DNA of 64,000 bases from a bacterium. GTDB taxonomy: Bacteria > Cyanobacteriota > Vampirovibrionia > Gastranaerophilales > Gastranaerophilaceae. Below are positions 14,774 to 26,105 of the stretch, piece after piece. The position numbers and the translations under genes are program-made. The DNA lies in the NCBI GenBank assembly GCA_017626055.1, contig JAGAJM010000023.1:17571-81570 (forward strand), read 5' to 3'. Numbering within the stretch: position 1 is the first letter of the stretch; every line of letters starts with the position of its first letter. The notes beneath the pieces are model-generated. The model was not told the origin of the DNA. It ran no database searches and saw only the letters and a list, made by a program, of their open reading frames with translations.

Positions 14774-16780
14774 ATGAGAATTCTCCCCCTTTCATATAAC
14801 TTATTTCTGCAAAATAAAATCCAGCAAAACCATTCATCTTTCACTTCCAAAACAGGTCTTAAACAAGATGAAGTGAGTTTTAGTGGAAATTCTGAGATGA
14901 GTGATGATGAGTACGCAACTAAATATAAATCCGTAACCCAACAGCTTTATACAAGACTTAAACAAGAGAACTTAGATGTTGCAAAATTCAAAGATTTCCC
15001 AATCTATCTTGAAAAAGATACTGTTGATTTTGCTCAAACTCTAATCAAAGATAAAGATTTCCCAATTCATCTTATAACAAATGTTATCGGTGAAATCAGT
15101 GGTGTAGATTTACTTAAACCATACGTAAAAGAAAATTACAAATTATACGTAAAAATGTATAACCAATGTATAAATAACCCAGATAATTATACCCCACTTC
15201 ACCAAGCTACACTAACCAAAGACGATATTGATAAATTCTTTGATAAAAAAGCAAAAGATCTTTTAATTTTATCTGGACTAGGAGATGAAGAATTAAATGA
15301 CATCATATTAAGAAAAAGATTTGATAAAGCTCCAGAATACCTAAAACAAGTATCACAATTATTCAAGTTCAAAAAATATGAACTTCTAAAACAAGGACTA
15401 AAATGTAAAAATCCAAATGGGCAACCTTTAAAACCAAACCAAAAACTTGAACTACTTGAATTGTTTAATGCTTATGGTGTAACACACACCGCTCCAACTA
15501 TCATATCTGATATGGTAAAATCTGGGACTCTAAATATCTCTCAACTAAAAGAAAATCTTTTCGATCAAATTTGGCAAAGTTGTGAATATTCAAAAGATGA
15601 TTTAGCACAAATACCTAAGAAAAAACTATATTCTTGGGATATGACATACTTATATCTAGTTCCAAGACACTTACAAACTAACAGAAGCGACTTTATCGAT
15701 ATTATAAAAATGGGAAATTCAAGGAAGAATTTCAAAACAATTATCCTTGATAAAACAAACGAATTTGGACAAAATAACGAAAAAACAAGAAATAGATTTA
15801 AACATCAAAACCTTGATTTTGCAAAATGGTTTACTCCTCCACAAGAAATTAATCGACGTCTTGTAATTAATGACCATAACGCAGGTATCCTAGAAAATAC
15901 CTGTATCCAGTTTGAAGAAAACGTTAATCTATTAAGAAAAATTCGTGTCGGAGATAAGTTTCCTGTAAAAATCTTCATTGATAAAAGGTACAAAAATTTC
16001 ATACAAGATGACGAATTTGTCGTACCTGAAGACATTAGAAATAACAGAGTAAAACTTAGACATCTTATAAGCGGCTTCAAAGAAGATATGCGCCCTGTCG
16101 CAGAAAGAACAGTTAATAACGCAAATAACAACAAAGACCACGCAACATTAGAACGTGCAATGTTAACTATGACCATACTAAATCACTTAGACGGACTAAT
16201 TGTATCTGCGTGGGAAATTCCAGAAAGTTTTGAACTTCATAGAAACTTAGACTTAACAATAAAAATGTGGGATAGAATTCCGCAAAAAGATTTATTCCAA
16301 GGAAATTATTCAACCTGTTGTATTGGTATGGGTGAATTTAACGCACAAGCAATGACAACTTATCTAAGAAATACTGCATTTAATATGATAGAAATTGTTG
16401 ATAATAATACCTCTAACACAATAGGAAATGCTTTATGTTATTACGCACTTGACGGGGACAAAAAGCCTATTTTAATCCTTGATAATATCGAAATAAACAA
16501 CAATTTCAAAGCAACACAAGATGCAAGACAACATATCCGCAATGAAATTTTTGAATACTGCAAAAACTTAAATAAAATTGTAGCAAAAGACGAAAACATA
16601 CCGATATATTTAGGTGGTTCATATAACGATGTACCAACATACGATTTAGAAGAATTTGAAGATAAACATATTACTCTACTTGGAAAAGTTGATACAAATA
16701 TGACTTACCTTGATGCGTTTAAAGGATGGGTTACAGATAAAGTAATTCAAGGTAATATCCCATTATTAAAAGCCCAATAA
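14774..16780 (+). CDS. Hypothetical 668-aa protein, leader-bearing (…EVSFSG)
   Basis: Long ORF; N-terminus MRILPLSYNLFLQNKIQQNHSSFTSKTGLKQDEVSFSG; no domain recognised. Confidence 0.7.
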   Translation: MRILPLSYNLFLQNKIQQNHSSFTSKTGLKQDEVSFSGNSEMSDDEYATKYKSVTQQLYTRLKQENLDVAKFKDFPIYLEKDTVDFAQTLIKDKDFPIHLITNVIGEISGVDLLKPYVKENYKLYVKMYNQCINNPDNYTPLHQATLTKDDIDKFFDKKAKDLLILSGLGDEELNDIILRKRFDKAPEYLKQVSQLFKFKKYELLKQGLKCKNPNGQPLKPNQKLELLELFNAYGVTHTAPTIISDMVKSGTLNISQLKENLFDQIWQSCEYSKDDLAQIPKKKLYSWDMTYLYLVPRHLQTNRSDFIDIIKMGNSRKNFKTIILDKTNEFGQNNEKTRNRFKHQNLDFAKWFTPPQEINRRLVINDHNAGILENTCIQFEENVNLLRKIRVGDKFPVKIFIDKRYKNFIQDDEFVVPEDIRNNRVKLRHLISGFKEDMRPVAERTVNNANNNKDHATLERAMLTMTILNHLDGLIVSAWEIPESFELHRNLDLTIKMWDRIPQKDLFQGNYSTCCIGMGEFNAQAMTTYLRNTAFNMIEIVDNNTSNTIGNALCYYALDGDKKPILILDNIEINNNFKATQDARQHIRNEIFEYCKNLNKIVAKDENIPIYLGGSYNDVPTYDLEEFEDKHITLLGKVDTNMTYLDAFKGWVTDKVIQGNIPLLKAQ

Positions 16781-19301: not shown

Positions 19302-21899
19302 ATGTTAGATTTTGACAAATTTACCAATTATTCACAAGAAATCCTTTCTAGTGCCAGTAATTTAATGGCTTCACACAAAAATTCTCAAATGGAGCCTGAA
19401 CACATTATGCTTGCAATGATAAAAGATAACGGAATAATTAAAGATTATCTAACGGAACTGAGACTACTAAATCAAAACTTTATCAATAAAATCGTATCAA
19501 AAGTAGAAAATTTTCCTAAAATATCAGGACCAATAAATCCTCAAGGGTTATATCTTTCAAATGATACAAGACGACTTTTAGAAATCGCAATTGAAGAATC
19601 GGAAAGAATAAAAGACGATTTTGTAGGAATTGAATCTATATTACTTGCAATGACAAAACTTGATAATAGTTATATCAAAACCTTATTACAAGATGTAAAT
19701 GTTAATTCAAATTCAGTTCTTGGTGTAATGAAAAAGATTAGAGGTAATAAAAGAGTGGACAACAAAAACGCTGAAGAAAATATGAAAGCCTTAGAAAAAT
19801 ATTCAACAGATTTAACAGATTTAGCTCGCAAAGGTAAATTAGACCCAGTTATTGGACGAGATGAAGAAGTTAGAAGAATTATACAAGTTTTAAACCGACG
19901 CACAAAAAATAACCCTGTCTTAATTGGGGAACCTGGGGTTGGTAAAACTGCTATTGTTGAAGGTTTGGCACAACGTATCATTAGAGGTGATGTTCCAGAA
20001 AGTCTAAAAGATGTTAAATTAATTTCTCTAGACTTAGGAGCATTAGTTGCTGGTGCTAAATTTAGAGGCGAATTTGAAGAACGATTAAAAGCTGTATTAA
20101 AAGAAGTTGAAGACTCAAATGGTGAAATCGTAATGTTTATTGACGAACTTCACACAGTAGTTGGAGCTGGCTCAACAGAAGGCTCAATGGATGCAGGTAA
20201 TTTACTAAAACCAATGCTTGCTCGTGGAGTTTTACGTACAATTGGAGCAACAACAATTAATGAATACCGAAAATATATTGAAAAAGACCCAGCTTTAGAA
20301 CGCCGTTTTCAACCTGTTTTGGTAGATGAACCATCCGTTGAAGATACAATTAGTATTTTGCGAGGTTTGAAAGAAAAATACGAAGTTCACCATGGCGTAA
20401 GAATTTTAGATAGTGCAATTATTGAAGCTGCAAAATTATCTGATAGATACATTACAGACAGATTTTTACCAGACAAAGCTATCGATTTAATTGATGAAGC
20501 GGCAAGTTCGCTTCGTATAGAAATCGATTCTATGCCTGAAGAAATTGACTCACTAATGCGTCAAAAAATGCAACTTGAAATCGAACGTGAAGCAATCAAA
20601 AAAGAAGAAACAGACGAAGCAAGAGCAAAAGTCGAAGATATTTCAAGACAAGTTGCGGTACTAGATAACAAAATCAACACTATGAAAACCCAATGGGAAC
20701 AAGAAAAAGCATCTATCACATCAGAAGCTGACATTAAAGATGAAATCAACAACGTAAAAAATAAAATCGAAGAAGCGGAAAGAAATACAGACCTTCAAAC
20801 TGCTGCAGAGTTAAAATACGGCAAACTATTAGAACTTGAAAAACAACTTAAAGCTTGCCAAAACAAAGAACAAGTTGAAAATAAATTCCTAAAAGAAGAA
20901 ATCACAGGTTCTGATATAGCTGAAGTTGTTTCAAAATGGACTGGAATCCCTGTTACAAAACTTGTAGAGTCAGAAAAACAAAAATTATTAAATATGGAAG
21001 AAATTTTACACAAACGACTTGTGGGACAAGAAGAAGCAGTTGATACAGTATCAGACGCTATTCGTAGAGCTCGTTCTGGTTTAAAAGATCCAAAACGTCC
21101 AATTGGAACATTCTTATTCCTTGGACCAACTGGTGTAGGTAAAACCGAACTTGCAAAATCTTTAGCTGAATTTATGTTCAACGACGAAGATGCCCTAATC
21201 AGAATTGATATGTCCGAATATATGGAAAAACACAACGTATCAAGACTTGTTGGCGCACCTCCAGGATATGTTGGATATGAAGAAGGTGGACAACTTACAG
21301 AAGCAGTTAGAAGAAAACCATATTCTGTTGTACTTTTTGATGAGATTGAAAAAGCACATCCAGACGTATTCAACATTATGCTACAAATCTTTGATGACGG
21401 ACGTTTGACAGATTCAAAAGGTCGTACAATTGACTTTAAAAACACTCTTATCATTATGACAAGTAATATCGGTTCAGACGTAATCTTAGAAAACACACTA
21501 AATGCTATGCTTTCACCTGAACAATTTAACGACACAAAAGATAAGGTTCTTGAAGTCTTAAGAGGACAATTCAAACCTGAATTTTTAAATAGAATCGATG
21601 AAACAATATTCTTTAAAGCATTGTCATTACAACAATTGAGCAGAATTGTGGATATCCAAATGAATTACTTGAGAAATTTACTAAAAGAACAAGAGTTAGA
21701 ATTCACTATCACAGATGATGCTAAAGAATTTCTTGCCACTCAAGGTTTCAACCCAGTATATGGTGCAAGACCACTAAAACGAGTAATCAGACAAATGGTA
21801 GAAAACCCATTATCTAAAGCGATTTTAGGTCAAAATTTTGCAAAAGGTGATGTAATAAAAATTGACCTTGATAACGATAAGCTTACTTTTAATAAATAA
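19302..21899 (+). CDS. clpB: Chaperone disaggregase ClpB
   Basis: 865 aa; two AAA modules ([13 protein letters not shown]; [12 protein letters not shown]) and a coiled-coil M-domain between them. Confidence 0.95.
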
Positions 21900-22136: not shown

Positions 22137-22340
22137 AATTTTATCCCCTTTTTATTATTTATTGTTTTTCCCTTACATTTATATAAAGTATTTTTGAATT
22201 TAATAATTGCGTAAATTGTCTATAAAAAGTATATAATTTTACATAAGTTTACATTTCAACAGTTAAAAAAATGAACCAGTTGCATTTTCTACTCGTTATA
22301 TACATGTAAGGAACGAAGAAAAAGAAAATGGAGGTACATT

Positions 22341-22595
22341 ATGAAAAAAATTATAGCTACCGCTTTATGTTTAACACTAGGCGCACCTTGCTTTGCTGCT
22401 GGACCTATGGGACCTCATCACTCTCCACGTCCTGTTGTTCATCACACAACATACGTAACTCATAATGTACCACCTCGACATAATATGCACAGAGGATACA
22501 GACATCATCACAGAATGTCACCAGGTGCAAGAACAGCAGTTACCGTGGCGGGAGTTGCAGGCTTAGCAATGGTAATTGCCGCAATCGCTGATTAA
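22341..22595 (+). CDS. 84-aa His/Pro/Arg-rich protein with signal peptide and C-terminal hydrophobic anchor
   Basis: MKKIIATALCLTLGAPCFAA signal; 13 His in the central segment (residues 21-60); C-terminal AVTVAGVAGLAMVIAAIA; SD GGAGG; locally higher GC than its surroundings. Confidence 0.6.
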   Translation: MKKIIATALCLTLGAPCFAAGPMGPHHSPRPVVHHTTYVTHNVPPRHNMHRGYRHHHRMSPGARTAVTVAGVAGLAMVIAAIAD

Positions 22596-22679
22596 AAATA
22601 ATACCTACTTAATCTTTTAACCTTAATACTATTCTTAATCTACACACCCCGAAAACTATTCCAAAACTCCATACAATGG

Positions 22680-22716
22680 AACCTCTCAGCTCTACCTGAG
22701 AGGTTTTCTTTTTATT
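22680..22716 (+). terminator. Intrinsic terminator of the His-rich ORF
   Basis: AACCTCTCAG-CTCTAC-CTGAGAGGTT followed by TTCTTTTTATT. Confidence 0.7.
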
Positions 22717-22791
22717 CTTTGTAACAAAAACTTAACAATAGAGTAAAAAAATTAAAGTTTTACAAAACAACTACCGATATATAATTTGTAA

Positions 22792-22872
22792 TCAAAACAA
22801 AACTAATTTTCCTCCTTTTCCCCTACTACTAACTAACCTACTTAAACGGAACCCACAAGGTTCCTTTTTTAT
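22792..22872 (+). ncRNA. Candidate ~80-nt C/U-rich, G-free RNA or leader, copy 1 (own promoter and terminator)
   Basis: -10 TATAAT at 22780-22785; G-free tract 22789-22847 containing UUUUCCUCCUUUUCCCC; terminator GGAACC-CACAA-GGTTCC + T6 at 22848-22870. The 81-nt core 22794-22874 is identical to 23477-23557. Confidence 0.4.
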
Positions 22873-22923
22873 TGACAAAAAATATTTTTAGAAGGTTTAT
22901 AATAAATGTTATAAGGAGAAATC

Positions 22924-23352
22924 ATGGAAACAGTAAAAATTGCCCCTATTAAAACAACAATTAAAAATAACGCAGTAGAGTTAAGACATAGCTTAGACAC
23001 AAAACAATGGCCTAGCGAAAATGTAACTGCAGTAGCATACAGAACGCATTTACAAGATAGCATAAATCACCCAACAACAACTCGTCTTGCTCGTCAAAAA
23101 TATATTGATAAGCCTTTCAAAGAATACGCTAACCAATACTGGAGAAATGAACAAATAGTTCTCAACAAAGACTCAGAAACCCAAAGGCTTTTAAAAGAAT
23201 TAAAAGGGAAAATGAATAAATTATACCCTACAACTCAAAAAGCTAGAGAATATATGGTAAAAACTGGTCGAGTTGACTTTGATACTGTTAAAAAAGCTAA
23301 AGGTTATAACTGGTTTGATAAATTAAGAATAGTTTTTACAAGAATAAAATAA
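22924..23352 (+). CDS. Hypothetical 142-aa protein
   Basis: SD AAGGAGA upstream; no domain recognised. Confidence 0.65.
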   Translation: METVKIAPIKTTIKNNAVELRHSLDTKQWPSENVTAVAYRTHLQDSINHPTTTRLARQKYIDKPFKEYANQYWRNEQIVLNKDSETQRLLKELKGKMNKLYPTTQKAREYMVKTGRVDFDTVKKAKGYNWFDKLRIVFTRIK

Positions 23353-23371
23353 ACAAACAAATAACACCAGA

Positions 23372-23400
23372 AAACGCCTCTTTAAAAGAGGCGTTTTTGT
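23372..23400 (+). terminator. Intrinsic terminator
   Basis: CGCCTCTT-TAA-AAGAGGCG followed by TTTTT. Confidence 0.7.
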
Positions 23401-23474
23401 TATGTAACAAAAACTTAACAATACACGCAAAAAATTAAAGTTATCAAAAAATGTGTCGATATATAACTTGTAAT

Positions 23475-23555
23475 TAAAACAAAACTAATTTTCCTCCTTT
23501 TCCCCTACTACTAACTAACCTACTTAAACGGAACCCACAAGGTTCCTTTTTTATT
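23475..23555 (+). ncRNA. Candidate ~80-nt C/U-rich, G-free RNA or leader, copy 2
   Basis: -10 TATAAC at 23463-23468; G-free tract 23472-23530; same terminator at 23531-23553; 81-nt identity with copy 1. Confidence 0.4.
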
Positions 23556-23606
23556 GCTAAAAATATGTGTTTCGTGTATTTTAGAAATAGAATTAGGGAT
23601 TCACAT

Positions 23607-24941
23607 ATGAAAATAACAAATGCCCCACGAAAACTACTAAGATGGTTCAAACGAGAAAATGTATGGGCTAGAGAATTAAATCAGTATTTGATAGCAAACC
23701 CACAAACAAACAGAAGAGTGGGTTCACTTCCGTATGAATGGATAAAAGACTTTGAACCAAGTCAAAGAGCAAGAGTTACACAAGAAATTTGTGATGTATT
23801 TGAACGCTTTGCAATCGAAACAAAAGACTTATGTGAAGACGATTTTTATACAACACGTATGACTGTTAAAAAGATACTTGGAATTAGTCCAGTATTTAAA
23901 GAATTACAAACAACACTTAGAAGAATACTACAAAGAAAAGATATCTTTGTAGGTTACCTGGGTCAAGGTGCTGTTAAAATGTCATCAAAAATAGATGTTG
24001 GTGGAAAAGGTTATGCTTTTTCTATATTTAAAGATAAGGGATGCAGAAAAGGCTTCAAAAGCTATTACACACCAGGACATGGAAGAGGCTATGAACCACA
24101 AAATATATTTATGTGCTATTACAAAGGTGCTCATGGTAGAAATGCTAGACCTTTTATGTCATTTATATCAAACGAAAATGTTCTCGGTGGATTCACTTTA
24201 ACAAAATACATTGACTACACACACCCTAAAAAAGGTCATAAAACCCCACTACAACGCTCAAGAGAATATATTTTCGATGGAGATTCACATAACCAAATCC
24301 ATGGTATAAGTATTGAGGCAGGTGGCAAAAGCGCTAATGAAAACTACATATTTGATAAACACGATAGAGAAATCTGGTATAGATTTGCCAATATAATATC
24401 TGGATACACTCAAGGTATGTTTTTCGTTAACGGAGTAGGTGGCATTACGACTCAAAATTTCTTATTAAAGCAAGCAAAAGCAGGTGTTGATATTTGTTCT
24501 AAACAATTCAAATCAAAATTAAGAGAAGAAATTACCAGATATTGTATCCAAGAGCATAAAAAAAGCGAAAATTTAACAGTAATTCAACAAACATTCTTAT
24601 CTTTGCTTGAAAAAACAAACTTCAACTCCAAAGGATACAATTATCTTATTAATGAAGTTGGAAAACATATTAAACCATCTAGTGTACTCAGCGGACATAA
24701 AAACTTTGGCGAACAGATTGACGATATACTAAGACGAACAAATAGAAAAGTTCATCGACAAATACGTTCTGTCGAAAAATTAAGAAAACTAAAAACTGAA
24801 CTTGAGCTTAGCGGGAATTGGGAAAGCATAAAAGCCTACCTCAACGCAGATTTTGCAAACTTAAAAGAAAGAAGTCATCAAAATTCAATGTATTATCCAA
24901 CATTATTGGAAAAAGAATTAGACATAGATTTAATCAACTAA
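23607..24941 (+). CDS. Hypothetical 444-aa protein (weak protein-kinase-like motifs)
   Basis: The track ORF starts at 23565; I prefer ATG 23607 (MKITNAP…). LGQGAV…YAFSIFK and FDGDSHNQ loosely resemble a kinase G-loop, Lys and catalytic loop. Confidence 0.65.
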   Translation: MKITNAPRKLLRWFKRENVWARELNQYLIANPQTNRRVGSLPYEWIKDFEPSQRARVTQEICDVFERFAIETKDLCEDDFYTTRMTVKKILGISPVFKELQTTLRRILQRKDIFVGYLGQGAVKMSSKIDVGGKGYAFSIFKDKGCRKGFKSYYTPGHGRGYEPQNIFMCYYKGAHGRNARPFMSFISNENVLGGFTLTKYIDYTHPKKGHKTPLQRSREYIFDGDSHNQIHGISIEAGGKSANENYIFDKHDREIWYRFANIISGYTQGMFFVNGVGGITTQNFLLKQAKAGVDICSKQFKSKLREEITRYCIQEHKKSENLTVIQQTFLSLLEKTNFNSKGYNYLINEVGKHIKPSSVLSGHKNFGEQIDDILRRTNRKVHRQIRSVEKLRKLKTELELSGNWESIKAYLNADFANLKERSHQNSMYYPTLLEKELDIDLIN

Positions 24942-24991: not shown

Positions 24992-25393
24992 TTATAAACC
25001 AGTTGCAGCTGCTCCTGCAGAACCAGCAGCATCAGCTCCAAGTGAACCACTTATAAATGATGCTACCAATGCTACAAATACACCCATATAAGCAATAGCC
25101 GCTAAAATTGACAATACTTGAAGTCCTACATAAGTCCAACCAAACCAGCCAACTCTTTCATAAAGTTCACTACCATCTTCGTGAGTAAAATTACCAGAAG
25201 CGAGCATAATACCATCAATAAATGACCAAACCCAAGTAACAGGAATCAAACCAATTGCTGACAAACCAAACATTGCCCAAGCTGTACCAATTTTACCTGT
25301 ATAAAATCTATGTCCACCAATAGGTCCAAAAAACCAGCAAAGTGACATTGCTGCCATCCAGTTTTTACCTTTTAATTCTTGTAATTCTGCCAT
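24992..25393 (-). CDS. TM2 domain protein (paralog 3 of 3)
   Basis: GGHRFYTGKIGTA…IDGIML…FTHEDGSEL. Confidence 0.8.
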   Translation of the reverse strand: MAELQELKGKNWMAAMSLCWFFGPIGGHRFYTGKIGTAWAMFGLSAIGLIPVTWVWSFIDGIMLASGNFTHEDGSELYERVGWFGWTYVGLQVLSILAAIAYMGVFVALVASFISGSLGADAAGSAGAAATGL

Positions 25394-25418
25394 ATAAAGC
25401 TCCTTTCACTATATAAAA

Positions 25419-25751
25419 TTAACCAGCAAACATTTTAACTAAACCTTGCAATCCCGCAAAAATAAAAGATAGAACTATAAAAAGACCAACAATCAATGCA
25501 CATCCTGCATTGTGTCCTTCTAGTTCTTTGCCATCAGCATCTCTATATGAATTCATAACAAGTGCAATATTATCAATTAATGTCCAAATACCACAACCAC
25601 CAGCTGTTAATAGTTGAATTACCCCAATAAAAACATAACCTGTATAAAAACGATGCACGCCCAAAAATCCTAAGAAAAAAGCAAGTAACAATGTTACAAC
25701 ATACGATCTTTGAGATTTTGGTGCTTGCCCCATATCATAATCCATACTCAT
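25419..25751 (-). CDS. TM2 domain protein (paralog 2 of 3)
   Basis: GVHRFYTGYVFIG…LIDNIAL…YRDADGKEL. Confidence 0.8.
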   Translation of the reverse strand: MSMDYDMGQAPKSQRSYVVTLLLAFFLGFLGVHRFYTGYVFIGVIQLLTAGGCGIWTLIDNIALVMNSYRDADGKELEGHNAGCALIVGLFIVLSFIFAGLQGLVKMFAG

Positions 25752-25763
25752 AAATTTATTCTC

Positions 25764-26105
25764 CTATATTATTCCATAAGCATCTAACAATACAAGTGTT
25801 AAAATAATAGCTATAACAATCGGTATTGTAATAGTAATAGTTACACACAAGTTATCATAATCTTGCAATTCATTTCCATTCGCATCTCGAAACTTGTTGG
25901 TCCAAAGTGAAACCAAATCAATCAAGAACCAAATACCATAGCCACCACCTGTTAAAAATTGAATTAAACCTATTAAAGTATAACCTGTATAAATCCTATG
26001 AATACCAAAAATACCAAGAAAAAAACATAATAATAAAGTTGTACCATGTGGTTTCTTCTCTTCTTCTGGACCGATTATATCGATATCTTCTTCAACTTCG
26101 TACAA
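25764..26105 (-). CDS. TM2 domain protein (paralog 1 of 3)
   Basis: GIHRIYTGYTLIG…LIDLVSL…FRDANGNEL. Confidence 0.8.
   Translation of the reverse strand: MYEVEEDIDIIGPEEEKKPHGTTLLLCFFLGIFGIHRIYTGYTLIGLIQFLTGGGYGIWFLIDLVSLWTNKFRDANGNELQDYDNLCVTITITIPIVIAIILTLVLLDAYGII

What the first reader, a model, noticed from the sequence alone, without database searches (positions are those of the whole stretch)
22591..23557. Duplicated promoter / C,U-rich G-free RNA / terminator cassette with an 81-nt perfectly identical core, placed in front of two unrelated hypothetical genes
Segments 22720-22874 and 23404-23557 are copies of one roughly 155-bp module. The upstream half is about 80 percent identical (TGTAACAAAAACTTAACAATA…, then -10 TATAAT / TATAAC). 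The downstream 81 nt (22794-22874 = 23477-23557) are 100 percent identical, although the flanking coding sequences are unrelated. The predicted roughly 80-nt transcript has a 59-nt tract with no G (…UUUUCCUCCUUUUCCCCUACUACUAACUAACCUACUUAAAC). That tract contains an anti-Shine-Dalgarno-like CCUCC and a CCCC run. It ends in a clean terminator (GGAACC-CACAA-GGTTCC + T6). Each copy sits after the terminator of the previous gene and about 50 nt before the next start codon (22924 and 23607). The 3' UTR of the His-rich ORF (22591-22650) is a third, diverged G-free tract sharing ACCUACUUAA, and it also ends in a terminator. I see two possible readings. The first is a small C-rich regulatory RNA family that targets G-rich ribosome-binding sites. 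The second is a shared 5' leader/attenuator whose read-through controls the two downstream genes. I do not recognise it as a known RNA family.
Basis: seen in the sequence. Interest (0 to 1): 0.65.

Follow-up and report, generated by a model that had tools for sequence, protein, structure and literature searches.

The report
Conserved anti-Shine-Dalgarno small RNA gene pair
The duplicated cassette is two copies of a previously undescribed ~83-nt small RNA gene, conserved across gut non-photosynthetic cyanobacteria (Gastranaerophilales), with a flagellar-type (sigma-28) promoter and an unpaired stretch that mimics the ribosome's mRNA-docking sequence; it probably blocks translation of target mRNAs.

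Summary

It is not a leader for the two downstream ORFs. It is a stand-alone small-RNA gene found in at least 90 distinct units from Gastranaerophilales genomes and metagenomes. It usually lies between clpB and TM2/dut/alaS genes, is often in tandem, and usually converges on the next gene.

Every unit has TAAA-N15/16-(G/A)CCGATA(A/T), the sigma-28/FliA/WhiG promoter consensus. This places +1 on a conserved G (22788; 23470). A direct-repeat box lies at about -68..-49. The RNA has an unpaired 5' region carrying the invariant UUCCUCCUUUU plus a C-run, then a GGAACC/GGUUCC terminator.

One family member lies 134 nt upstream of a FliA/WhiG sigma-factor gene.

No Rfam family matches and I found no literature on it.

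The most likely mechanism is a trans-acting RNA that pairs with Shine-Dalgarno regions. Expression, the transcription start site, sigma dependence and targets could not be tested. The claimed third copy (22591-22650) is not a family member. I class this as a new member of a known kind, of moderate interest.

The parts
22720..22739 (+). Upstream direct-repeat box of copy 1 (TGTAACAAAAACTTAACAAT). It holds the units GTAACAAA and TTAACAAT 11 bp apart, at -68..-49 from the predicted start. Probable response-regulator site.
   Evidence: Conserved at a fixed distance from the -35 element in the family (consensus tTGTAACAa..tcTtAacA). It resembles HLR1, but HLR1 has a 10-bp period and a TTACA core.
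22753..22780 (+). Sigma-28/FliA/WhiG-type promoter of copy 1: -35 TAAAG (22753-22757), 15 nt between TAAAG and the 8-mer (TAAA-N16), -10 ACCGATAT (22773-22780).
   Evidence: All 90 distinct units have TAAA-N15/16-NNCGATAN. The published consensus is -15 GCCGATAA -8 and -36 TCTAAAG -30. The scan finds no sigma-70-type promoter here.
22788..22870 (+). Predicted small RNA, copy 1 (~83 nt): +1 G at 22788, unpaired G-free region 22789-22847, terminator at the 3' end.
   Evidence: +1 is inferred from the sigma-28 geometry; that position is G in 81 of 90 units. The covariance model scores it 85.7 bits. The minimum-free-energy fold pairs only the terminator.
22809..22829 (+). Seed of copy 1: invariant UUCCUCCUUUU (22809-22819), CCCC (22820-22823), UACUAC (22824-22829). 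It resembles the anti-Shine-Dalgarno sequence.
   Evidence: All 54 copies retrieved from metagenomes with a pattern that did not specify the core keep UUCCUCCUUUU; only the C-run varies.
22848..22870 (+). Intrinsic terminator of copy 1: GGAACC-CACAA-GGTTCC followed by T6.
   Evidence: The stem sequence is nearly invariant in the family, the loop varies, and there is no covariation.
23403..23422 (+). Upstream direct-repeat box of copy 2 (TGTAACAAAAACTTAACAAT).
   Evidence: Identical to the box of copy 1.
23436..23462 (+). Sigma-28-type promoter of copy 2: TAAAG (23436-23440), 14 nt between TAAAG and the 8-mer (TAAA-N15), -10 GTCGATAT (23455-23462).
23470..23552 (+). Predicted small RNA, copy 2. 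It differs from copy 1 only at +6 (U for C). Seed at 23491-23511, terminator at 23530-23552.
   Evidence: 86.6 bits with the covariance model. Identical block 23476-23556. Terminator.
22924..23352 (+). 142-aa lineage-specific helical protein gene (family 'F6') lying between the two RNA copies. It is a frequent same-strand neighbour of the RNA but not part of the transcript.
   Evidence: In 13 of 41 loci F6 is next to the RNA, before or after it. It is absent between the copies in L014, L018 and runs X12-X17. It has no Pfam match, only 14 clusters in 5.8 billion, and no PDB fold match.
22591..22650 (+). G-free 3'UTR of the His-rich small-protein gene (22341-22595). It is not a family member.
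   Evidence: No covariance-model hit at E<=10. The 3'UTR is conserved in its own right (CUUAAUCU, UUUACCCC, ACUCCAUA) and shares ACCUACUUAA with the RNA's linker.

Best explanation
Each copy is an autonomous gene for an ~83-nt trans-acting small RNA that is specific to Gastranaerophilales (non-photosynthetic Cyanobacteria/Melainabacteria of animal guts). Shown directly from sequence: the unit runs from a conserved direct-repeat box at -68..-49, through a TAAAG-N-CCGATA promoter, to a GGAACC/GGUUCC-U6 terminator. About 60 nt of the RNA 5' of the terminator are predicted to be unpaired and carry the invariant UUCCUCCUUUU followed by a C-run. The unit occurs singly, in tandem or dispersed, at a syntenic site downstream of clpB, regardless of what lies downstream. 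Inferred: (1) transcription starts at the conserved G (22788 and 23470) and is driven by a FliA/WhiG-family (sigma-28) sigma factor, probably modulated by a response regulator bound to the upstream box; (2) the unpaired CCUCCUUU/CCCC tract, which has the same sequence as the anti-Shine-Dalgarno end of 16S rRNA (general knowledge, not checked in this organism), pairs with GGAGG- or GGGG-type ribosome-binding sites of target mRNAs and blocks translation initiation; (3) the lack of G keeps the seed from folding back on itself; (4) the two copies raise dosage and are kept identical over the transcribed part by selection and gene conversion, while their promoters drift.
For: Family and conservation. 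The 22-mer core hits 40 loci in GTDB species genomes, essentially all labelled Gastranaerophilales/Melainabacteria or uncultured gut/rumen MAGs. A metagenome scan that specified only CGATA plus the terminator gave 48 family loci, and all 54 copies keep UUCCUCCUUUU. The covariance model separates 49 hits of at least 58 bits from background of at most 29 bits.

Autonomy. Synteny is clpB > His-rich ORF > RNA (1-2 copies), then a convergent membrane protein, TM2, dut and alaS. There are tandem copies in 14 loci and variable downstream genes.

Promoter. 90 of 90 units have TAAA-N15/16-(G/A)CCGATA(A/T), and G is at the position 8 nt after the -10 8-mer in 81 of 90. This matches the published sigma-28 geometry. 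No sigma-70 promoter is called.

Sigma factor. A FliA/WhiG sigma gene passing NCBIfam cut-offs lies 134 nt downstream of a family member in L095. Homologues at >=77% identity fill more than 120 clusters. The same promoter type precedes a 51-aa ORF (L113) and a second C-rich small-RNA candidate (L120, L121) on contigs that carry that sigma gene.

Structure. Only the terminator pairs.

Paralogues. In the window the transcribed region is 99% identical and the promoter 81%. Terminator-loop variants are shared within genomes and differ between them.
Against: No transcript evidence could be obtained. Only assembled contigs were available. Bovine gut metatranscriptomes that contain the neighbouring His-rich mRNA show no contig over the RNA, although RNAs under 100 nt are usually lost from such libraries.

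No target was identified. Pairing energies with neighbouring genes' start regions do not stand out from ordinary Shine-Dalgarno complementarity.

The sigma-28 assignment rests on consensus match and co-occurrence. The window itself has no fliA or flagellar gene. Only about 25% of Gastranaerophilales have complete flagella. No flagellar gene promoter from this lineage could be examined.

The terminator stem shows no covariation, so the RNA structure is not statistically supported beyond energetics.
Confidence: 0.55

Rival explanations
1. It is the same stand-alone small RNA, but it works as a decoy or sponge for a protein (or for another RNA) that recognises C/U-rich single strands, not by masking ribosome-binding sites.
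For: About 60 nt are unstructured. The core and even the terminator stem sequence are invariant, which could reflect protein contacts. Copy number is multiple. No specific mRNA target stands out. A frequent orphan neighbour, F6, is basic and helical and could be a partner.
Against: The invariant 11-mer is exactly an anti-Shine-Dalgarno-type sequence, the simplest pairing explanation. F6 is absent from most loci that have the RNA. No RNA-binding fold was found for F6.
Confidence: 0.15
2. The RNA is real, but it is transcribed by the housekeeping sigma factor from the A/T-rich TATAAT-like hexamer. The match to the sigma-28 consensus is coincidental, or it is a binding site for something else.
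For: In the window TATAAT/TATAAC follows CCGATA. The lineage is AT-rich. Most Gastranaerophilales lack full flagella.
Against: The TATAAT-like positions vary between species, while TAAAG and CCGATA are present in 90 of 90 units at fixed N15/16 spacing. The sigma-70 scan finds nothing there. A highly conserved FliA/WhiG gene exists in the lineage and is adjacent to one family member.
Confidence: 0.2
3. It is a cis-acting 5' leader or attenuator whose read-through controls the downstream genes (22924 and 23607).
For: In the window each copy is followed about 50 nt later by a same-strand ORF. One RNA-like run has a contig that crosses the terminator into the next copy.
Against: Downstream genes differ or are convergent in most species. 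Relatives have the two copies back to back. F6 has its own conserved -35/-10. There is no alternative antiterminator fold.
Confidence: 0.04
4. It is a non-functional dispersed repeat or miniature mobile element.
For: It is multi-copy and assemblies break at it (contigs end at the copies).
Against: It has no terminal inverted repeats or target duplications. Its position is syntenic across species. Its promoter, core and terminator are under far stronger conservation than its flanks. There are no hits in viral contigs.
Confidence: 0.02

Closest known systems
Streptococcal csRNAs (cia-dependent small RNAs, ccnA-E)
   Same: They are several near-identical small RNA genes per genome, each with its own promoter preceded by a response-regulator direct repeat of 11-bp period (NTTAAG-N5-TTTAAG). 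An unpaired region is complementary to the Shine-Dalgarno sequence, and each ends in a terminator (PMC3091779).
   Different: csRNAs have two stem-loops flanking the seed and also carry an anti-start-codon CAU. They use a sigma-70 -10, with the CiaR box replacing the -35. The lineage is different and there is no sequence similarity. Here the promoter is sigma-28-type and the box lies further upstream.
Cyanobacterial Yfr1
   Same: It comes from the sister lineage. It is a short abundant RNA with an ultraconserved unpaired C/U-rich motif (ACUCCUCACAC) upstream of a terminator hairpin, and it acts by base pairing (PMC2190773).
   Different: Yfr1 is 54-69 nt and has a 5' stem-loop and a different 11-mer. 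The RNA here lacks a conserved 5' hairpin and gives no Rfam hit. A second candidate seen in L120/L121 has the Yfr1 layout more closely.
Sigma-28-dependent small RNAs of flagellar regulons (E. coli UhpU, MotR, FliX, FlgO; C. jejuni FliA-dependent sRNA)
   Same: They are small RNAs whose expression depends on FliA (PMC10578931; PMC11187230).
   Different: The E. coli RNAs are UTR-derived and belong to flagellated hosts with known targets. Here the RNA is a free-standing gene, the lineage is mostly without complete flagella, dependence on the sigma factor is only inferred, and there is no homology.
RpaB/HLR1-controlled sRNA PsrR1 of Synechocystis
   Same: It is a cyanobacterial sRNA whose promoter carries a tandem octamer direct repeat bound by an OmpR-type regulator. 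The box position decides between activation (centre -66..-45) and repression (PMC6525291).
   Different: The box here has an 11-bp period and a TAACA core, not the 10-bp period and TTACA core of HLR1. PsrR1's HLR1 overlaps the start site. A canonical HLR1 is present in the window, but in front of the neighbouring His-rich ORF.

Membership tests
Any Rfam 15 family | Score at or above the family's gathering threshold | tested here: not met
   The whole window gives only a tRNA. A permissive scan of 22550-23650 gives only sub-threshold noise, none centred on the RNA.
Yfr1 | Unpaired ultraconserved ACUCCUCACAC between a 5' stem-loop and a terminator; 54-69 nt | tested here: not met
   The motif is absent and the core is UUCCUCCUUUUCCCC. 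There is no conserved 5' hairpin. Length is 72-97 nt.
Streptococcal csRNA | CiaR box NTTAAG-N5-TTTAAG 10 bp upstream of a TATAAT -10; two stem-loops; anti-SD plus anti-AUG | tested here: not met
   There is no TTTAAG repeat; the box is GTAACA-N5-TTAACA, further upstream. The RNA has a single hairpin and no CAU next to the anti-SD. It resembles csRNAs in how it works, not by homology.
Sigma-28 (FliA/WhiG/SigD)-dependent promoter | -35 TAAA(G), about 15-nt spacer, -10 GCCGATAA/T, start about 8 nt after the -10 | tested here: met
   90 of 90 units match, with spacer 15 (24 units) or 16 (66 units), and a G at the predicted +1 in 81 of 90. Consensus.
Sigma-28 (FliA/WhiG/SigD)-dependent promoter | The organism encodes the sigma factor | tested here: inconclusive
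   A FliA/WhiG gene is present in the lineage and lies next to one family member. It is not in this 64-kb window, and the rest of this genome was not available.
Sigma-28 (FliA/WhiG/SigD)-dependent promoter | Transcription depends on the sigma factor | not testable with these tools
   This needs in vitro transcription or genetics.
HLR1 / RpaB-regulated promoter | (G/T)TTACA(T/A)(T/A)-N2-(G/T)TTACA(T/A)(T/A) | tested here: not met
   The RNA's box is GTAACAAA-N3-TTAACAAT, with an 11-bp period and an A at position 3. The neighbouring His-rich ORF does carry a perfect HLR1 at 22238-22255.
Rho-independent terminator | GC-containing hairpin followed by a U-tract | tested here: met
   A 6-bp stem, 5-nt loop and T6, at -8.8 kcal/mol.
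Base-pairing sRNA | Discrete transcript and a demonstrated mRNA target | not testable with these tools
   No raw RNA reads were available. In-silico pairing was not discriminating.

The most novel reading that the evidence does not exclude
In this mostly non-flagellated lineage the highly conserved FliA/WhiG-type sigma factor may have been repurposed. On this reading its main conserved outputs are multi-copy, G-free mimics of the 16S anti-Shine-Dalgarno tail: this family, plus a second C-rich RNA with a Yfr1-like layout seen in L120/L121. An alternative sigma factor would then act chiefly by globally throttling translation of strong-SD mRNAs through small RNAs, and these RNAs would be the melainabacterial counterparts of the cyanobacterial Yfr1 system.
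Probability: 0.12. Interest if true: 0.75.

Novelty: new member of a known kind. Interest (0 to 1): 0.5.

Why it matters
Gastranaerophilales are uncultured and widespread in human, primate, rodent and ruminant guts, and nothing is known about their post-transcriptional regulation. This gives them a first well-defined small-RNA family. The family has a precise gene model: box, sigma-28-type promoter, +1, seed and terminator. It also provides a diagnostic 11-mer and a covariance model that separates members cleanly. A highly conserved FliA/WhiG sigma factor now has a concrete, testable promoter class in a lineage where most members lack complete flagella. Practically, the 81-nt perfect repeat explains why assemblies of this locus break here.

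Tried and rejected
1. Rfam at gathering and permissive thresholds gave nothing relevant.

2. Four RNA-seq run searches and five read-laying runs returned only Logan contigs. These gave no usable 5'/3' ends for the RNA. They did show strain variants with and without the 142-aa gene and showed that the His-rich mRNA is expressed.

3. Target prediction with duplex energies on window genes and syntenic neighbours was dominated by generic Shine-Dalgarno complementarity. The His-rich ORF was the best neighbour (median -12.8 vs -6.6 kcal/mol) but not convincingly so.

4. RNA structure: RNAalifold and the covariance model find only the terminator. 5' hairpins occur in some clades but are not conserved.

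5. The F6 protein has no Pfam match, only 14 homologous clusters, an all-helical AF2 model (pLDDT 75) and no PDB match.

6. I searched the fetched loci for flagellar genes and their promoters, using motif scans and six FliA gene neighbourhoods. None was found, so the promoter class could not be compared with flagellin promoters of the lineage.

7. Minus-strand coding (GGAGG followed by a 2-codon ORF) is not conserved and was rejected. A sigma-54 reading of the upstream box was rejected because the GG/GC invariants are missing.

8. The viral contig scan returned 0 hits.

9. The NarL-type regulator next to the RNA in L024 is not a conserved neighbour.
Full report
**Observation.** The sequence at 22591-23557 is as described. 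The repeat finder reports 22747-22881 vs 23429-23563 at 89% identity and 22711-22767 vs 23394-23450 at 81%. The 41-nt C/U tract occurs exactly twice in the window, with none expected. The perfectly identical block is 22794-22874 = 23476-23556, which is 81 nt at offset 682. Each copy has a 59-nt G-free run (22789-22847 and 23471-23529). However, seven G-free runs of 59 nt or more exist on the + strand of this window, so G-freeness alone is not remarkable. Terminator-like hairpins followed by T6 are called at 22848-22864 and 23530-23546.

**Organism and context.** The window is an ordinary low-GC (~31%) chromosome segment. It carries clpB (19302-21899), three TM2-domain genes, dut, alaS, dnaE and transporters, and no flagellar genes. 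Scanning one genome per GTDB species for the 22-mer core gave 40 loci. Essentially all are labelled Gastranaerophilales/Melainabacteria/Vampirovibrio or are uncultured gut and rumen MAGs. One 'Methanomethylophilaceae' contig and one 'Clostridium' contig have the same synteny and are probably mis-binned or mislabelled.

**It is a gene family, not a local duplication.** Aligning the units shows a fixed anatomy:
- an upstream box, TGTAACA-N4-CTTAACA;
- TTAAAG;
- CCGATA;
- ATGTAA;
- a variable A-rich 5' stretch, which in some clades contains a hairpin insertion;
- the invariant UUUCCUCCUUUUCCCCUACUA;
- an optional AACUAACCUAC module;
- GGAACC-loop-GGUUCC-U6-AUUG.

A covariance model built from 44 copies contains only the 6-bp terminator helix. 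It separates 49 hits of at least 58 bits from everything else at 29 bits or less. The first scan required the core, so I ran a second scan on metagenome contigs that specified only CGATA, a gap, and the terminator. Of 72 loci, 48 are family members. All 54 of their copies keep UUCCUCCUUUU. The following C-run varies: U4-CCCC in 39 copies, U5-CCCC in 11, CCAC in 2, CC in 2 and C5 in 1. The remaining hits are unrelated and lack the promoter. The anti-Shine-Dalgarno-like 11-mer is therefore the most constrained part of the RNA.

**It is not a leader.** I clustered the flanking ORFs. The prevailing order is clpB > His-rich small protein ('F7', the window's 22341-22595) > RNA (one or two copies), then a small membrane protein, TM2 genes, dut and alaS, all on the opposite strand. 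A rumen clade has a different but also convergent context. The closest relatives, L014 and L018, share the window's outer flanks but have the two copies 168 nt apart with nothing between them. Metagenome runs show the same 12-nt junction. At least eight independent assemblies share the window's arrangement. The 142-aa ORF ('F6') is a lineage-specific family. It sits next to the RNA in 13 of 41 loci, sometimes before it and sometimes after it, and in L008/L035 the pattern is RNA-F6-RNA-F6. Where it follows the RNA it has its own conserved -35/-10. The 444-aa ORF is found only in the three closest genomes. The two 'unrelated hypothetical genes' are thus incidental neighbours.

**Promoter.** What is conserved in 90 of 90 distinct units is TAAA-N15 (24 units) or N16 (66 units), followed by (G/A)(C/T)CGATA(A/T). 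That is the sigma-28/FliA/SigD/WhiG consensus. A 2026 structural paper gives the fliC promoter as (-36)TCTAAAG(-30) and (-15)GCCGATAA(-8). Applying that geometry puts +1 on the G of the conserved ATGTAA: it is G in 81 of 90 units and A in most of the rest. In the window this is 22788 and 23470. The predicted RNA is then 83 nt, and its only G residues are the initiating one and those of the terminator.

A typed E. coli FliA query against all fetched loci hit one ORF strongly. L095:2740-3561 passes the NCBIfam FliA_WhiG and FliA cut-offs, and it begins 134 nt after a bona fide family member (63 bits). Homologues of this sigma factor at 77-84% identity fill more than 120 90%-identity clusters, some seen on hundreds of contigs. 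In six neighbourhoods the gene is free-standing, next to ompA-like, peptidase M16 and comM-like genes, and not in a flagellar cluster. On those contigs the same promoter type precedes a 51-aa ORF (L113) and a second C-rich small-RNA candidate (L120, L121). The literature says only a minority (about 25%) of Gastranaerophilales have complete flagellar gene sets. The sigma factor, and with it this RNA, is therefore probably not strictly a flagellar function.

**Upstream box.** At -68..-49 lies TGTAACAAAAACTTAACAAT, made of two units (GTAACAAA and TTAACAAT) 11 bp apart. This is typical of winged-helix response regulators. It resembles the cyanobacterial RpaB site HLR1, which is (G/T)TTACA(T/A)(T/A)-N2-repeat and activates when centred at -66 to -45. 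It differs from HLR1 in period and in one core base, so I do not call it HLR1. A perfect HLR1 does sit upstream of the neighbouring His-rich ORF (22238-22255), followed by a conserved TGAAC-N16-TCGTTATA element that looks like an ECF-type promoter. The locus may be a small stress or envelope regulon.

**RNA properties and mechanism.** The minimum-free-energy and centroid folds pair only the terminator, and the first 60 nt are open. No start codon or conserved ORF exists on either strand. The seed CCUCCUUU equals the anti-Shine-Dalgarno end of 16S rRNA of the Bacillus/cyanobacterial type (my knowledge, not checked for this organism), and CCCC matches the GGGG-type ribosome-binding sites that several window genes use. 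The simplest mechanism is occlusion of ribosome-binding sites in trans. The absence of G would prevent self-pairing of the seed. Duplex energies against start regions of window genes and syntenic neighbours do not single out a target. The His-rich ORF is the best neighbour. Pairing is therefore an inference.

**Copy identity.** Among 14 loci with paired copies, the transcribed part is on average more similar than the promoter (0.91 vs 0.85). In the window, L014 and L018 the figures are 0.99 vs 0.81-0.89. Terminator-loop variants are shared by the two copies of a genome but differ between genomes. This indicates concerted evolution of an old duplication rather than a recent segmental copy.

**What could not be shown.** No raw RNA reads were available. 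Metatranscriptome contigs cover the His-rich mRNA but not the RNA, which is uninformative for a species under 100 nt. Sigma-factor dependence, the start site, the regulator of the box and the targets are all untested.

**Third tract.** The region 22591-22650 is the 3'UTR of the His-rich ORF. It is not detected by the model. It is conserved and G-poor in orthologues and shares ACCUACUUAA with the RNA's optional linker. That shared motif is unexplained.

**Comparison and verdict.** There is no Rfam family and no literature on small RNAs of Melainabacteria. In how it works, the RNA is closest to streptococcal csRNAs: multi-copy, controlled by a response-regulator repeat, and carrying an anti-SD seed. 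It also resembles cyanobacterial Yfr1. By promoter class it joins the sigma-28-dependent sRNAs known from E. coli and Campylobacter. It fails the defining features of each of those families, so it is a new family of a known kind.

Noticed in passing
window 22341-22595 and upstream 22238-22310: An 84-aa His-rich small protein with a signal peptide and a C-terminal anchor, conserved next to the RNA. Its upstream region has a perfect HLR1 (TTTACATAAGTTTACATT) and a conserved TGAAC-N16-TCGTTATA element (ECF-like) ending in ATGTA(A/G)G. Its mRNA is present in bovine gut metatranscriptome contigs (22318-22663).
   Followed up: partly
window 22596-22710; orthologous 3'UTRs in L001, L014, L016, L018, L022, L026: The 3'UTR of the His-rich gene is G-poor and conserved (CUUAAUCU, UUUACCCC, ACUCCAUA). 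It shares ACCUACUUAA with the optional linker module of the small RNA. This could be a common binding site or a 3'UTR-derived RNA. It remains unexplained.
   Followed up: partly
window 22924-23352: The 142-aa protein belongs to an orphan family (14 clusters in 5.8 billion). Its conserved C-terminal motif is LYPKT-K-R-YII---R. The predicted fold is all-helical with no PDB match. It is repeatedly adjacent to the small RNA on the same strand, and its presence between the copies is polymorphic among strains.
   Followed up: yes
L095:2528-2606 and L095:2740-3561: On one metagenome contig a member of the small-RNA family lies 134 nt upstream of a FliA/WhiG sigma-factor gene, in the order kdtA - RNA - fliA/whiG - dnaE.
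   Followed up: yes
L120:2980-3090 and L121:3478-3600: A second small-RNA candidate with a sigma-28-type promoter (CTAAAG-N-(T/A)CGATA). It has a 5' hairpin GAAAAC-GAAA-GUUUUC, an unpaired AUACCUCCUCCCCAAG and a terminator, which is a Yfr1-like layout. It converges on prs. It has no Rfam hit and is absent from the window.
   Followed up: partly
L113 (- strand) 15790-16012: A 51-aa ORF (MIKKITTPSSNRCESVELILRG...) is preceded by the same TTAAAG-N-GCCGATAA promoter and a TGTTAACA box.
   Followed up: no
L003:6287-6357 and L027:2971-3043 (- strand): Another conserved, terminator-ended intergenic element (AAAAACUUUUUCAUACUUCCAGCUAUUC...) was picked up weakly by the model (~26 bits). It shares CUUUUUCAUAC(C/U)UCC with the L120/L121 candidate.
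   Followed up: no
L116-L121, upstream of the fliA/whiG genes; window 22306 and 22788: ATGTAA/ATGTAG recurs at predicted transcription starts of unrelated promoters in this lineage: the fliA/whiG genes, the His-rich ORF and the small RNA. This suggests a lineage-wide preference in the initiation context.
   Followed up: no
L001 (CAVAPR010000006.1) and L026 (CAZUKK010000002.1): Contigs labelled 'Methanomethylophilaceae archaeon' and 'Clostridium sp.' carry the Gastranaerophilales synteny (TM2, dut, clpB, the small RNA). They are probably mis-binned or mislabelled.
   Followed up: no
L126-L129: Several metagenome contigs of this species end exactly at the small-RNA copies. The 81-nt perfect repeat fragments short-read assemblies of this locus.
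   Followed up: no
window 24992-26105 (- strand): There are three tandem TM2-domain paralogues. One to three copies are conserved at this position across the lineage.
   Followed up: no
L067, L068, L097 (one assembly, ERZ1034913) and L044, L071 (ODKV01): Some genomes carry three or more dispersed copies of the RNA on different large contigs, all with the U5 variant of the seed.
   Followed up: no
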